Shown here one piece after another: positions 25,845-28,939 of a DNA stretch of 64,000 bases (positions are counted from its first letter, which is position 1; each line of letters starts with the position of its first letter). The notes beneath the pieces are model-generated. The model worked only from the letters and a program-made list of their open reading frames with translations, did no database searches and was not told the DNA's origin. Source of the stretch: Candidatus Bathyarchaeota archaeon (GTDB taxonomy: Archaea; Thermoproteota; Bathyarchaeia; Bathyarchaeales; Bathycorpusculaceae); the NCBI GenBank assembly GCA_963715865.1, contig OY970280.1, forward strand, positions 1,120,001 to 1,184,000, written 5' to 3'. A program made the translations under genes and the position numbers.

Positions 25845-26678
25845 CTACTTACTTCTCTTAAACATTTGTCTAACATCGTCAAGCTTTGAACCCACTATTT
25901 CTATGTCATCAATGCTTCCTAATCCTTTCTCGTACGCTCTTCTAATGTGAGAAATTTCCATGGGTTCAAATCCCATGATTCTGGCGGCGGTTGCGTCTGT
26001 TGCAACAACATCCTTCCCTGCAATTATTAAGTCCATTTTGACAGGCGTCCCGTCAGTTGGGCCTTTGCCCTCCATTCCTACGAACCCATCTATCAGTGTT
26101 AACGCAGGTTTGAGCACTGTATTGATATCCACTATGACTTTGCTTATGCCCTTTGCATGATATTTTCCTTTGAACTTGTCTGGCAAAAGACCAAACATGT
26201 TCTTCATGCCTAACGTGACTTTTGTTGACGCATGAGTTTTGAGTTTTGCAGCGCTTATTATGGCGGATTCTGTAACGATGCGCGGCACAGTAATGCTCCG
26301 CAATGTTTCACCGTTAGGAATGTCAATTTTGACTCTATCTTTTACATGCCGCAAGTTAAGACATTCAACGCCGTTTTGTTTGCATGTCTCCTTCATCCCA
26401 GTAGCTTCAAAGGCTTTGTCAGCATTAGTCATCGTCGCATCTGACTCGACAACGAAAATTTCAACGTGCAAATGTTTCAGCTTTTTTATTATAGCTTCAA
26501 CAACGATGGGGTCTGTTGTTGCTCCAGTGTCCCATGTTTGGGTGGTTATGAAATTAACTTTTATGAGGACCTTATTCCAACCGGATAGTGCTGACTCGTA
26601 GTCTATCAGGTCCAGCGCTTTGAAAACGGGCTCGTGCCCTCTTTCGCCTTTCACAATTGCGACTTTCGATTTCTCCAT
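25845..26678 (-). CDS. DUF362 family protein
   Basis: KVLIKVNF, KLKTH...TLGMKNMFG and IDGFVGMEGKGP..G.P...DVVATD motifs. Confidence 0.9.
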   Translation of the reverse strand: MEKSKVAIVKGERGHEPVFKALDLIDYESALSGWNKVLIKVNFITTQTWDTGATTDPIVVEAIIKKLKHLHVEIFVVESDATMTNADKAFEATGMKETCKQNGVECLNLRHVKDRVKIDIPNGETLRSITVPRIVTESAIISAAKLKTHASTKVTLGMKNMFGLLPDKFKGKYHAKGISKVIVDINTVLKPALTLIDGFVGMEGKGPTDGTPVKMDLIIAGKDVVATDATAARIMGFEPMEISHIRRAYEKGLGSIDDIEIVGSKLDDVRQMFKRSK

Positions 26679-27048
26679 TTACGACACAGTTCGCTCAATT
26701 AACTTTAACGAAGCTTTAAACGTTTATCTTTGGCGACACTGTTAAGTTAAGTTAAGTTAAGTTACCCAACATCAAAATAAACCTGCGAGCACTAACTTTT
26801 TGAAAGCTTTCAGTTCTTTTTTTGATAGTAGTCAGAAGCCTTGATTTAAAAGGCTTGTTATATTGTAATTTATATGCTGGAATTTAATAAGCGACTTAAC
26901 GGTTGTGATTGTCTGCTTACAGTCACAAAAGTTCTATAGCTATCGTCCGTTATTTATAAAAATAGATATAAATTGTCGCGGTTGTCTTTTTTTGTACGCA
27001 GTAAGCTTTAAGGGTGTTATCGTAAGTAGTAATATACCATCGATAGGT

Positions 27049-27420
27049 ATGTCCACCGTTCAACAATCGGTAGTCAGAAAAAGGTTAAATAGCAAGCAAC
27101 CGCATACTGCGGAATCAAAGGGAAAGGCGAAAAAGGGTATGACACTTGTTCAAATTGACAAAAAATCAGAGTTTGCGCTGAATGACATGCTTGCCGAAAG
27201 ATTTTACAGACTACAAAAGGACTATGAATGGATTCTTAATCATAGAGACAATCTTACAAACGAGTTTCCAAATAAGTACATTGCAGTTGAAAACGGAGTA
27301 GTGCGATTTGTAGGCGATACTGTTGAAGGCTTAATGAGCGAAATTTCCCGTAATCATGAACAAGTTGAGAATTTCGCTATTGACTTTTTAAGTCTGTATC
27401 CCCAAAGCTTTCTTTTTTAG
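27049..27420 (+). CDS. DUF5678-like small protein
   Basis: YEWILNHRDNLTNEFPNKYIAVENGVVRFVGDTVEGL pattern typical of DUF5678. ATG 27049 is preferred over the 26905 ORF start. Confidence 0.7.
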   Translation: MSTVQQSVVRKRLNSKQPHTAESKGKAKKGMTLVQIDKKSEFALNDMLAERFYRLQKDYEWILNHRDNLTNEFPNKYIAVENGVVRFVGDTVEGLMSEISRNHEQVENFAIDFLSLYPQSFLF

Positions 27421-27431
27421 GAAAAAATTTA

Positions 27432-27887
27432 TTGAAAGTAGTGGCAAAACTAGATAAAAACTACCATGCACAACTAATGGTATATTTTTGGTGCTCTCAG
27501 TTCGATGACCCAAAAGCTGTTAATTTTTTTATTGACACAGGCTGCACAACCACCACTATTTTGAATGATGATGCAACTCTTCTCGGAATAGATTGTTCAG
27601 CCCTTAATGCAGGATGCTCAGTCTCAACAGCTAACGGTAATGTAGTTCCTTACGAAATACCAGAAGTTATCTTAATTTTCCAAGCTAGGTATGGTTTGTT
27701 CAACCTTTCAAAGGGCTTAAAGGGTACTAAATTAACAAAGGTTCACTGTCATGTTCCAACAAACCCTCTCTTAATGACCCAACAAAGAATAGACAATGCA
27801 TTTAGTCTCATAGGAATGGATTTCTTAAAAAAATTCAAAACGTGGAAATGGGACTATGATAAAAAGCGATTAGTTTTAAGCACATAA
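27432..27887 (+). CDS. Retropepsin-like (clan AA) aspartic protease
   Basis: Catalytic FFIDTGCTTT, flap VSTANG and C-terminal SLIGMDFL motifs; single-lobe 151 aa. Confidence 0.88.
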   Translation: MKVVAKLDKNYHAQLMVYFWCSQFDDPKAVNFFIDTGCTTTTILNDDATLLGIDCSALNAGCSVSTANGNVVPYEIPEVILIFQARYGLFNLSKGLKGTKLTKVHCHVPTNPLLMTQQRIDNAFSLIGMDFLKKFKTWKWDYDKKRLVLST

Positions 27888-28126
27888 AATTGTGAAAATG
27901 TTGGGTAACTTAACTTAACAGTGTCATCTTTGGCGCAACAGATTTATCTGGACTAGACGATTATCAGAATTCTCATTGTTACAAGTTCTTCAAATTGTAT
28001 GTATAGCCTAATAACGTCGTCTATGCTCAAGTCTTTGCAGGCTGGATTGTTTGAACAAAACTTTTACGCGATCGAACAAATGTCCCTATCCTTTGAATCT
28101 CTACTCCTTATAGCAAAGCATGATAA

Positions 28127-28939
28127 CTAAAGAAGCGGAATGATTAACAAACCAGTGATTAATCCACCTGCTAACCCTAACATGATTGGAAAAGGCAAGC
28201 CTGGAAAGATTCCTTTCCTCTCAAGCATAAAAAAAGTTATGACAGAGCCTACTAAGATGCCGATTACTGACATTATGTATGGTAGAATGTTAGGTAAGAA
28301 GGTGAAGAGCATGACTCCAGTCAGCATGGAGTAGAATACTAAGTCGCCTAGTCCCATCTGAATATCTTTAAATGCGAAAGTCAAGCCCTGAAGCTCGTCG
28401 AGTCCTGTCTGAGCAATTTTTCCCACTGGACCACGATAAACCGCAATTACGTCGTATACTGCTAGAAAGGCGAGAATTAGCACTGCGCTGTATAATGGAA
28501 TTGAGAAGCCGAAGAAAATGCCCAGTGCACCGCCTACGCAGATTACAGCCGTGTTTCGCGCGATGCTACCTAAACGGAAAATGACAAGGTCAAACAATAT
28601 TGTAATGGCTATGGACAGGGGTATTACTAGGATGCCCCAGCTTGGAAAATAGGCGAAGACCGCGGACAAGTAAATCATCGACAACAACAAGGATGCAGTC
28701 GTCATAGCAACAGTGATTATTCCTTTGATGATTCTTTTGCTTCTCCGCTTAATCAAAATATAAAACACTGTCGCGGCTACAGCCAAAAGAATGACAAAGT
28801 AAAAAGCGTTGCCAAACGGTCCTGAAGGAGTATTCTCAGGGAAAGGCGTTACAGGAATAACCTCTGGTTGCTGAGGCAACAGCAAGTAAGCACAGCCTAA
28901 ACCGAAAATTAAGCTTGCCAGTATCGGAACCAAATACAC
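28127..28939 (-). CDS. Presenilin/signal-peptide-peptidase-like intramembrane aspartyl protease (GxGD)
   Basis: Multi-TM protein with AVYD, MGLGD and PGL (PAL-like) motifs. Confidence 0.88.
   Translation of the reverse strand: MYLVPILASLIFGLGCAYLLLPQQPEVIPVTPFPENTPSGPFGNAFYFVILLAVAATVFYILIKRRSKRIIKGIITVAMTTASLLLSMIYLSAVFAYFPSWGILVIPLSIAITILFDLVIFRLGSIARNTAVICVGGALGIFFGFSIPLYSAVLILAFLAVYDVIAVYRGPVGKIAQTGLDELQGLTFAFKDIQMGLGDLVFYSMLTGVMLFTFLPNILPYIMSVIGILVGSVITFFMLERKGIFPGLPFPIMLGLAGGLITGLLIIPLL

What the first reader, a model, noticed from the sequence alone, without database searches (positions are those of the whole stretch)
26726..27934. Transposase-less TIR element with 9-bp TSD mobilising a DUF5678 + retropepsin gene pair
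The 1,191-bp unit is bounded by inverted repeats starting GACACTGTTAAG and flanked by an exact ATCTTTGGC duplication, the signature of DDE transposition. It holds two intact passenger genes and no transposase. The ends resemble IS6-type GGCACTGT termini, while a 9-bp TSD is more IS256/Mutator-like, so the family is unresolved. This looks like a non-autonomous cargo transposon in an archaeon, recent enough to keep a perfect TSD. The predicted empty site is ...CGTTTATCTTTGGCGCAACAG....
Basis: seen in the sequence. Interest (0 to 1): 0.85.

Follow-up and report, generated by a model that had tools for sequence, protein, structure and literature searches.

The report
Transposase-less archaeal IS6-type cargo transposon
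A 1.2-kb jumping-gene cassette in a Bathyarchaeia genome has lost its own transposase, keeps the ends of an archaeal IS6-type transposon family that carries extra genes, sits just upstream of a gene's promoter, and carries a small protease gene with a partner gene.

Summary

- **The element.** Window 26735-27925 is a 1,191-bp element. Its 28-bp inverted ends are perfect apart from a TTAAG-repeat indel. An exact 9-bp duplication (ATCTTTGGC) flanks it. Congeneric genomes show the uninterrupted site.
- **The family.** The unresolved family is now assigned. Of 23 convergent end pairs starting GAYACTGTTAAGT, 22 from congeners and one more from this genome, 17 have perfect 9-bp duplications. All ten elements of 3.5 kb or more carry a 303-aa IS6-family transposase plus cargo, much of it restriction or defence genes. 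The 13 smaller ones, like this one, have no transposase.
- **Mobility here.** The window's genome holds no cognate transposase, only relatives of 32-34% identity. The cassette is probably stranded.
- **Target choice.** Insertions lie about 5 nt from a TATA-like box. Here that is the DUF362 gene's promoter.
- **The cargo.** It is a retropepsin-like protease and a weakly DUF5678-like partner. The same pair recurs beside ends of this family and inside a different IS6-like transposon. A model supports binding of the two proteins.

The scan has found this apparently undescribed Bathyarchaeia transposon group before, on other DNA. This is a new variant of a known kind.

The parts
26726..26734 (.). 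Left copy of the 9-bp target-site duplication, ATCTTTGGC
   Evidence: Relatives carry a single copy at the uninterrupted site.
26735..26772 (+). Left terminal inverted repeat: GACACTG, then (TTAAG)x4, then TTACCCAACAT
   Evidence: The terminal 13-mer is shared with about 150 ends in the genus. The pentamer copy number varies from 1 to 4 among sibling ends.
26953..26964 (+). TATA-like box TTTATAAAAATA, a possible internal promoter for the cargo pair (inferred)
   Evidence: Read from the sequence. It lies about 30 nt upstream of the start inferred from the homologue alignment. Not tested.
26992..27420 (+). Cargo gene 1: a weakly DUF5678-like protein. The likely start is TTG 26992 (142 aa); the alternative is ATG 27049 (123 aa).
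   Evidence: Homologues of 138-142 aa align from this region, with conserved LNSKQAHT and a conserved C-terminal P..LLF. DUF5678 is hit by 5 of 7 members, best E 1.6e-4, all below the Pfam cutoff. AlphaFold2 gives pLDDT above 90 for residues 50-115; Foldseek finds no PDB match.
27432..27887 (+). Cargo gene 2: a single-domain retropepsin-like aspartic protease of 151 aa
   Evidence: PF13975 E 3.5e-9, above cutoff. TIGR02281 E 3.7e-12, below cutoff. PDB ApRick protease E 1.5e-8. D35 and G37 of the D(T/S)G motif, and the LLGMDFL block (its L and M nearly so), are invariant in 12 homologues.
27898..27925 (-). Right terminal inverted repeat: the same sequence with (TTAAG)x2
27926..27934 (.). Right copy of the 9-bp target-site duplication, ATCTTTGGC
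26716..26721 (-). TATA-like box TTTAAA of the flanking DUF362 gene (ATG at 26678, minus strand). The insertion lies 4 nt beyond it, which is the target context.
   Evidence: Read from the sequence. The same geometry holds in 16 of 22 sibling insertions against 13% of background sites. It held in a hold-out set of 27 single ends. The ORF start lies 47 nt from the duplication.

Best explanation
The 1,191-bp unit is a non-autonomous cargo transposon. In ISfinder terms (from memory) it is a 'mobile insertion cassette': two IS ends around passenger genes, with no transposase.

It belongs to an archaeal IS6-type transposon family that is widespread in Bathyarchaeia. A family transposase supplied in trans (about 303 aa: an InsA-like zinc ribbon plus an IS240-type DDE domain) recognised the GAYACTGTTAAGT... 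ends. It inserted the cassette with a 9-bp staggered cut, a few bases upstream of the BRE/TATA of the DUF362 gene.

This genome now has no cognate transposase, so the cassette is most likely stranded.

Its cargo is a two-gene module: a dimeric retropepsin-like aspartic protease and a partner protein that is modelled to bind it. By analogy with the defence and toxin-antitoxin cargo of sibling elements, the module is probably an addiction or defence unit.

Shown: the ends, the duplication, the empty site, the sibling elements with and without transposase, and the target bias. Inferred: mobilisation in trans, the chemistry of transposition (IS6-like copy-in followed by resolution, versus cut-and-paste), and the function of the cargo.
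For: 1. Structure: the TIR and the exact 9-bp TSD are present, with 0 matches to the end expected by chance.

2. Empty site: in at least 10 congeners the DUF362 and presenilin-like genes lie 9-313 nt apart, measured between the aligned blocks. G003 and G020 align across the junction with one copy of the target.

3. Family census: the end 13-mer occurs about 150 times in 62 of 120 genus genomes, against about 9 hits for the reversed control. It occurs in 51 of 201 genomes sampled across the order, in 22 of 79 genera.

4. Sibling insertions: of 23 convergent pairs, 17 have a perfect 9-bp TSD and 4 match at 8 of 9 positions, each at a different site.

5. Transposase: all ten elements of 3.5 kb or more carry it, at 71-100% identity to one another, and three copies are broken. 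The 13 elements of 386-2,543 bp carry none. It scores PF13610 E 9e-20 and NF033587 (IS6) 130.5 bits against a cutoff of 125. The IS1 and IS256 models fall below their cutoffs.

6. Ends: GACACTGTT matches the IS26-type GGCACTGTT at 8 of 9 positions and holds the family's cTGTt motif (PMC7986276). The archaeal member ISPfu5 has GA tips and a 9-bp TSD (PMC6807381).

7. Mobility of this very cassette: a copy 94.5% identical lies on contig L077 with a different right flank.

8. Cargo pair: homologues of the pair at 60-61% aa identity lie directly inside a right end of this family in G087 and G078.

9. Binding model: protease dimer plus partner scored ipSAE 0.67 (median of three runs); the best control scored 0.19. 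The runs agree in at least 74% of their contacts. Partner pLDDT is at least 71. The interface lists the catalytic D35/G37 of both protease copies and the partner's conserved C-terminal residues 117-123.
Against: - No cognate transposase is in the window's genome. The only relatives are 34% identical (intact, 1430282-1431175) and 32% identical (a pseudogene), and neither has recognisable GAYACTGTT ends nearby. Mobilisation in trans is therefore inferred, not seen.
- The cassette is single-copy in this genome.
- Canonical IS6 members make 8-bp duplications, are about 800 bp long and have GG tips. Harmer and Hall question whether archaeal 'IS6' elements belong to that family at all (PMC6807381).
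- The two ends differ by a 10-bp indel.
- The cargo function has no experimental or database support: PADLOC gave nothing and the partner's fold has no PDB match.
Confidence: 0.88

Rival explanations
1. The cassette is still mobile in this genome. The resident, distantly related IS6-type transposase at genome 1430282-1431175 (34% identity) would cross-mobilise it.
For: That resident gene is intact, at 297 aa, and passes the IS6 model at 131.6 bits. The same cargo pair sits in L079 inside a transposon of that second lineage, so the two lineages exchange cargo.
Against: - The second lineage uses different ends (GGTTCTGG..., 56 nt).
- No such ends, and no GAYACTGTT ends, flank the resident gene.
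- Only one copy of the cassette exists in the genome.
Confidence: 0.08
2. The element is autonomous: one of its two proteins, or the pair, is an unrecognised recombinase that moves it.
For: Both genes are intact and conserved. The partner protein has no known fold.
Against: - Twelve other transposase-less elements with the same ends carry unrelated cargo: Fic, a C39-like peptidase, DUF2299 and unknowns.
- All ten elements of 3.5 kb or more carry the IS6-type transposase.
- Retropepsin-like proteases are not known to act on DNA (established knowledge).
Confidence: 0.02
3. The family belongs to IS1 (its ISMhu11 subgroup, which carries passenger genes and makes 8-9-bp duplications) or to IS256, not to IS6.
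For: The transposase has an InsA/IS1-type N-terminal zinc ribbon (NF050000, 40 bits, above cutoff) and hits the IS1 model at E 3.8e-19. From memory of ISfinder, IS1 and IS256 make 8-9-bp duplications.
Against: - The IS1 model scores 69 bits against a cutoff of 100, and the IS256 model 26 bits against 150. The IS6 model passes.
- PF13610 is the best Pfam hit.
- The ends carry the IS6 ACTGTT motif at the IS26 positions (PMC7986276).
Confidence: 0.05
4. This is not a transposition product. The inverted repeats and the direct repeat arose by chance or by site-specific integration (att sites).
For: The 9-mer alone is not rare: it occurs 3 times in the window against 0.86 expected.
Against: - Shuffles give 0 expected matches to the 20-nt end.
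- Twenty-one sibling insertions have different 9-bp duplications, perfect or one base off.
- There is no integrase, and the repeats are inverted rather than direct.
- Relatives carry the empty site.
Confidence: 0.01

Closest known systems
IS6/IS26 family insertion sequences, especially the archaeal group (ISPfu1, ISPfu2, ISPfu5, ISSis1)
   Same: - The partner transposase passes the NCBIfam IS6 model and matches Pfam DDE_Tnp_IS240.
- The ends hold ACTGTT at positions 4-9, as in IS26.
- GA tips are recorded for ISPfu1, ISPfu2 and ISPfu5, and a 9-bp TSD for ISPfu5 (PMC6807381).
   Different: - Canonical members are 700-890 bp with one ORF and 8-bp repeats.
- The family review lists only one passenger-carrying member (ISDsp3) and two MITEs (PMC7986276).
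- Here every autonomous member seen is 3.5-5.8 kb with several cargo genes, and transposase-less cargo derivatives are as common as autonomous copies.
- The transposase is longer (303 aa) and has an N-terminal zinc ribbon.
- Insertions lie next to TATA-like boxes.
Mobile insertion cassettes (MICs) and other non-autonomous IS derivatives, e.g. the IS231-related MIC231 of the Bacillus cereus group (from memory, not checked here)
   Same: Two IS ends bracket passenger genes without a transposase. A target-site duplication of the parent family's length flanks them. Mobilisation by the parent transposase in trans is presumed.
   Different: - The parent family here is archaeal and IS6-type.
- The host is an uncultured archaeon.
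- The parent is absent from the same genome.
- A 2019 survey stated that transposons with passenger genes had not been detected in archaea (PMC6563490).
MITEs
   Same: Non-autonomous, TIR-bounded and flanked by a TSD. The same family also has gene-poor members of 386-745 bp.
   Different: This element is 1,191 bp and carries two conserved protein genes, so it is not a MITE.
Retropepsin-like bacterial proteases such as Rickettsia APRc (PDB 5c9b, 5c9d)
   Same: A single retropepsin-like domain with D(T/S)G, and a profile match at E 1.5e-8.
   Different: Here the gene is always paired with an upstream gene of 138-142 aa, whose product is modelled to bind the protease dimer. The pair travels as transposon cargo.

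Membership tests
IS6 (IS6/IS26) family | An IS6-type DDE transposase | tested here: met
   Met for the family's autonomous members: NF033587 scores 130.5 bits against a cutoff of 125, and PF13610 gives E 9e-20. The window element itself encodes none.
IS6 (IS6/IS26) family | Short terminal IRs with GG tips and cTGTt/caaa motifs (PMC7986276) | tested here: inconclusive
   ACTGTT is present at positions 4-9, and GACACTGTT matches the IS26 GGCACTGTT at 8 of 9. The tip is GA rather than GG, as in the archaeal ISPfu group (PMC6807381). No caaa motif is present.
IS6 (IS6/IS26) family | 8-bp target-site duplication | tested here: not met
   The duplication is 9 bp here and in 17 of 23 sibling pairs (perfect), with 4 more matching at 8 of 9. 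ISPfu5 is recorded with 9 bp (PMC6807381).
IS6 (IS6/IS26) family | A compact IS of about 0.7-0.9 kb with a single ORF | tested here: not met
   Autonomous members are 3.5-5.8 kb with 2-7 extra ORFs.
IS6 (IS6/IS26) family | Replicative cointegrate formation | not testable with these tools
   This needs a transposition assay. Only end products (simple insertions) are visible.
Non-autonomous cargo element (mobile insertion cassette) | The same ends as an autonomous IS, no transposase, passenger genes, and a TSD of the parent's length | tested here: met
   The ends are shared with transposase-bearing elements. tblastn finds no transposase remnant. There are two conserved ORFs. The TSD is 9 bp.
MITE | Small (below about 0.5 kb) and non-coding | tested here: not met
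   The element is 1,191 bp with two conserved genes.
Retropepsin-like aspartic protease (Pfam gag-asp_proteas / clan AA) | Family model above cutoff and a catalytic D(T/S)G | tested here: met
   PF13975 scores 37.6 bits against 28.2. D35 and G37 are invariant in 12 homologues. TIGR02281 is below its cutoff, 46.5 against 57.95.
DUF5678 (PF18929) | Family model above the gathering cutoff | tested here: inconclusive
   The window protein scores 15-16 bits against a cutoff of 23.2. Five of 7 homologues hit the model, best E 1.6e-4.
Toxin-antitoxin or defence module | Two adjacent genes whose products bind, one toxic and the other neutralising; or a match to a known defence model | tested here: inconclusive
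   The pair is conserved. The model supports binding: 0.67 against a best control of 0.19, a mark reached by 58 of 80 solved complexes and 2 of 110 mismatched pairs. There is no PADLOC hit. Toxicity was not tested.

The most novel reading that the evidence does not exclude
The family's transposase reads archaeal promoter architecture. It would recognise DNA bent by TBP and TFB, or the BRE/TATA sequence itself, and insert at a fixed distance of about 5 nt from the TATA-like box. Cargo cassettes such as this one would then be parked just upstream of host promoters without breaking genes.

This would be a target-selection mode not described for IS6 elements. It would also make these elements a major, undescribed vehicle for defence and addiction genes in Bathyarchaeia. 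The retropepsin-partner pair would be a new protease-based addiction or defence module, with the partner's C-terminal tail plugging the active site.
Probability: 0.3. Interest if true: 0.8.

Novelty: new variant of a known kind. Interest (0 to 1): 0.6.

Why it matters
Transposons that carry passenger genes were reported as not detected in archaea (PMC6563490). The IS6 review lists a single passenger-carrying member and two MITEs (PMC7986276).

Here one end sequence defines dozens of elements in an abundant sediment and soil archaeal order. They are autonomous cargo carriers and transposase-less cassettes in roughly equal numbers. Their loads are rich in restriction and defence genes. They also show a strong preference for insertion beside TATA-like boxes.

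That gives:
- a concrete, testable system for how archaeal defence islands and small gene modules move;
- a ready set of natural mini-transposons;
- a candidate new protease-partner module.

I found no description of these elements in the searchable literature.

Tried and rejected
- **Cognate transposase in the window's genome.** Only relatives of 32-34% identity turned up. No inverted repeat longer than 13 nt lies within 8 kb around them, and no GGTTCTGG-type ends flank them.
- **Second end pair in this genome (973498-975579).** It has good TIRs but no TSD, so it was left out of the target statistics.
- **Left ends in G087 and G078.** None was found within 1.5 kb of the cargo pair, and L078 has only a degenerate left end.
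- **Gene orientation at promoters.** An outward ORF starts 47-52 nt from the duplication in 5 of 22 sites. The rest were unclear with 400-nt flanks.
- **Defence models.** PADLOC gave nothing for the cargo pair.
- **Partner fold.** The AlphaFold2 model of the partner was good over residues 50-115. Foldseek against the PDB found no match at E 0.001 or better.
- **RNA families and signals.** Rfam found nothing in 26500-28300. The bacterial-type promoter and terminator scan is uninformative for an archaeon.
- **Literature.** A search for DUF5678 gave one irrelevant paper.
- **IS256/Mutator and IS1 assignment.** Rejected on model scores.

Full report
**1. The observation**

ATCTTTGGC occurs at 26726-26734 and at 27926-27934, flush against inverted ends.
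- The left end, 26735-26772, is GACACTG, four TTAAG pentamers, then TTACCCAACAT.
- The right end, 27898-27925, is the same with two pentamers.
- So the TIR is a perfect 28 bp plus a 10-bp microsatellite indel, and the unit is 1,191 bp.

The 20-nt end occurs only at these two places in the window, against 0 expected in shuffles. It occurs nowhere else in the 2.35-Mb single-contig genome. The element has two ORFs and no trace of a transposase.

**2. The empty site**

The flanking genes are a DUF362 gene (25845-26678, minus strand) and a presenilin/SPP-like gene (28127-28939, minus strand).
- In at least ten genomes of the same genus these two genes lie 9-313 nt apart, measured between the aligned blocks.
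- The closest relative, G003 (80% nt identity), reads GCTTTAAACGTTTACCATCGGCTCAACAG. The window with the element and one repeat copy removed reads GCTTTAAACGTTTATCTTTGGCGCAACAG.
- G020 and G012 also run through the junction with a single copy of the target.

**3. The family**

The end 13-mer GAYACTGTTAAGT occurs about 150 times in 62 of 120 genomes of the genus, against about 9 hits for the reversed control. It occurs in 51 of 201 genomes sampled across the order, in 22 of 79 genera.

I took 22 further convergent pairs, 386 bp to 5.8 kb apart, plus the window element.
- 17 of the 23 have a perfect 9-bp duplication, each of a different sequence.
- 4 more match at 8 of 9 positions.
- One, this genome's second element at 973498-975579, has none.

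Only the outer 13-14 nt are constant. Further in, the ends fall into several subtypes, and the TTAAG count varies from 1 to 4.

**4. The transposase**

All ten elements of 3.5 kb or more encode a protein of about 303 aa, 71-100% identical among themselves. Three copies are broken. The 13 smaller elements have none. The protein has an InsA-like zinc ribbon and a DDE_Tnp_IS240 domain (PF13610, E 9e-20). It passes NCBIfam's IS6 model at 130.5 bits against a cutoff of 125. The IS1, IS256, IS3 and IS481 models are below cutoff.

The ends agree with IS6. GACACTGTT matches the IS26-type GGCACTGTT at 8 of 9 positions and holds the family's cTGTt motif (PMC7986276). GA tips are recorded for archaeal IS6-group members, and a 9-bp duplication for ISPfu5 (PMC6807381).

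Record titles show that the hosts are Candidatus Bathyarchaeota/Bathyarchaeia MAGs. Relatives of 44-58% identity, and in one case 72%, occur in Nitrososphaeria, Methanomethylicus and Methanolobus vulcani.

**5. Autonomy**

The window's genome has only two distant relatives of this transposase.
- One is intact, at 1430282-1431175 (34% identity).
- One is broken, at 623550-624305 (32% identity).

Neither has recognisable ends nearby. They resemble the transposase of a second IS6-like lineage with GGTTCTGG... ends. The cassette is therefore most likely stranded here. Mobilisation in trans is an inference from the shared ends.

That this cassette has moved is supported by a copy 94.5% identical on a contig from another sample (L077), with a different right flank.

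**6. Target choice**

I tested this here.
- In 16 of 22 sites an all-A/T 7-mer (TTTAAA, TAATAAA or TTATAAA type) lies 4-6 nt from the duplication on one side. The figure is 13% for random intergenic-like sites of this genome (binomial p about 4e-10).
- Because I chose that measure after looking at the data, I repeated it on 27 single ends not used before. 8 of 27 were positive, against 6.6% background for one orientation (p 2.6e-4).
- In the window the box is TTTAAA at 26716-26721, 38-43 nt upstream of the DUF362 start codon, and the duplication begins 4 nt beyond it.
- In four further sites an outward ORF starts 47-52 nt from the duplication.

The insertion thus sits just upstream of the BRE/TATA of the DUF362 gene. 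How the site is recognised is unknown.

**7. Cargo in the family**

Autonomous elements carry:
- type I/IIG-like methylase and specificity genes;
- methylase-Mrr fusions;
- GmrSD, NYN, DUF3800, ParB_N and an SDH-type protease;
- UPF0175/wHTH proteins.

Transposase-less elements carry Fic/DOC, a C39-like peptidase, DUF2299, wHTH proteins and many unknowns. This genome's second element carries a SocA/Panacea-domain protein.

**8. This cassette's cargo**

Gene 2 is a single-domain retropepsin-like protease.
- PF13975 is above cutoff.
- A profile of the homologues matches the ApRick protease in the PDB at E 1.5e-8.
- D35, G37 and the LLGMDFL block are conserved in 12 homologues.

Gene 1 is only weakly DUF5678-like, below cutoff in every member. 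Its homologues are 138-142 aa, which points to a TTG start at 26992. They share an invariant C-terminal P..LLF.

The pair is rare: the large protein collection held 9 and 3 homologues. It is always a pair. It lies directly inside right ends of this family in G087 and G078. In L079 it lies inside a transposon of the other IS6-like lineage.

A complex model of the protease dimer plus the partner supports binding but does not show it.
- The score was 0.67, the median of three runs. The best control scored 0.19.
- That mark was reached by 58 of 80 solved complexes and by 2 of 110 mismatched pairs. These counts hold only roughly, because I used my own alignments and a three-chain job.
- The runs share at least 74% of their contacts. 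Partner pLDDT is at least 71.
- The interface lists the catalytic residues of both protease copies and the partner's C-terminal tail.

I read the pair as a protease with a bound partner, either inhibitor or substrate, and possibly an addiction or defence unit. That function is a hypothesis.

**9. Comparison and novelty**

The kind is known: a non-autonomous IS derivative with passenger genes, of an IS6-type family. What departs from the described IS6 family:
- a 9-bp duplication;
- autonomous members of 3.5-5.8 kb that always carry cargo;
- many transposase-less cargo cassettes;
- insertion beside TATA-like boxes.

The IS6 review lists one passenger-carrying member and two MITEs (PMC7986276). 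A 2019 survey said that passenger-carrying transposons had not been detected in archaea (PMC6563490). A 2026 archaeal IS survey does not mention passenger genes or Bathyarchaeia, and I found no paper on these elements.

The scan itself has met this Bathyarchaeia group several times on other DNA. I rate this a new variant of a known kind, of moderate to high interest.

Noticed in passing
window about 28035-28100 (genome 1148035-1148100): A conserved intergenic repeat with the core GGCTGGATTGTTTGAACAAAACTTTTACGCGATCGAACAAATGTC occurs at 20 or more further places in this genome, at 80-98% identity. It is absent from the short intergenic spacer of G020. No Rfam match. Its nature is unknown: regulatory site, small RNA or MITE remnant.
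   Followed up: partly
genome 973498-975579 (L007:3498-5579): A second element with ends of the same family (AGATACTGTTAAGTCATTTGTGGT, 24 nt, 96% complementary) but no target duplication. It has a second, nested right end 26 nt inside, and the same double end is seen in L061. Its cargo is a SocA/Panacea-domain protein and a 127-aa unknown. It cuts into an ORF next to a terminase-like gene (L007:6294-7685), so it may lie at the edge of a provirus.
   Followed up: partly
genome 1430282-1431175 (L025:1462-2355) and 623550-624305: One intact and one broken IS6-type transposase gene of a different lineage, about 33% identical to the family described here, with no recognisable terminal repeats within 8 kb.
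   Followed up: partly
L021 (G003:C1:5001-9800): In the closest relative, the same intergenic region holds a different 2.2-kb insert just to the right of the empty target. It contains a 105-aa ORF (unannotated) and a transporter-like membrane-protein ORF split in two. The spacer may be a hot spot.
   Followed up: no
L079:1332-7001: A 5.7-kb transposon of a second IS6-like lineage: 56-nt ends starting GGTTCTGG and a 376-aa transposase. It carries a methylase-Mrr fusion and a decayed copy of the same DUF5678-like/retropepsin pair, so cargo is shared between transposon lineages.
   Followed up: partly
L128 (Methanolobus vulcani B1d, NZ_VIAQ01000015.1:116034-124876): A cultured methanogen carries a transposase 51% identical to the family's. 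It could serve as an experimental host.
   Followed up: no
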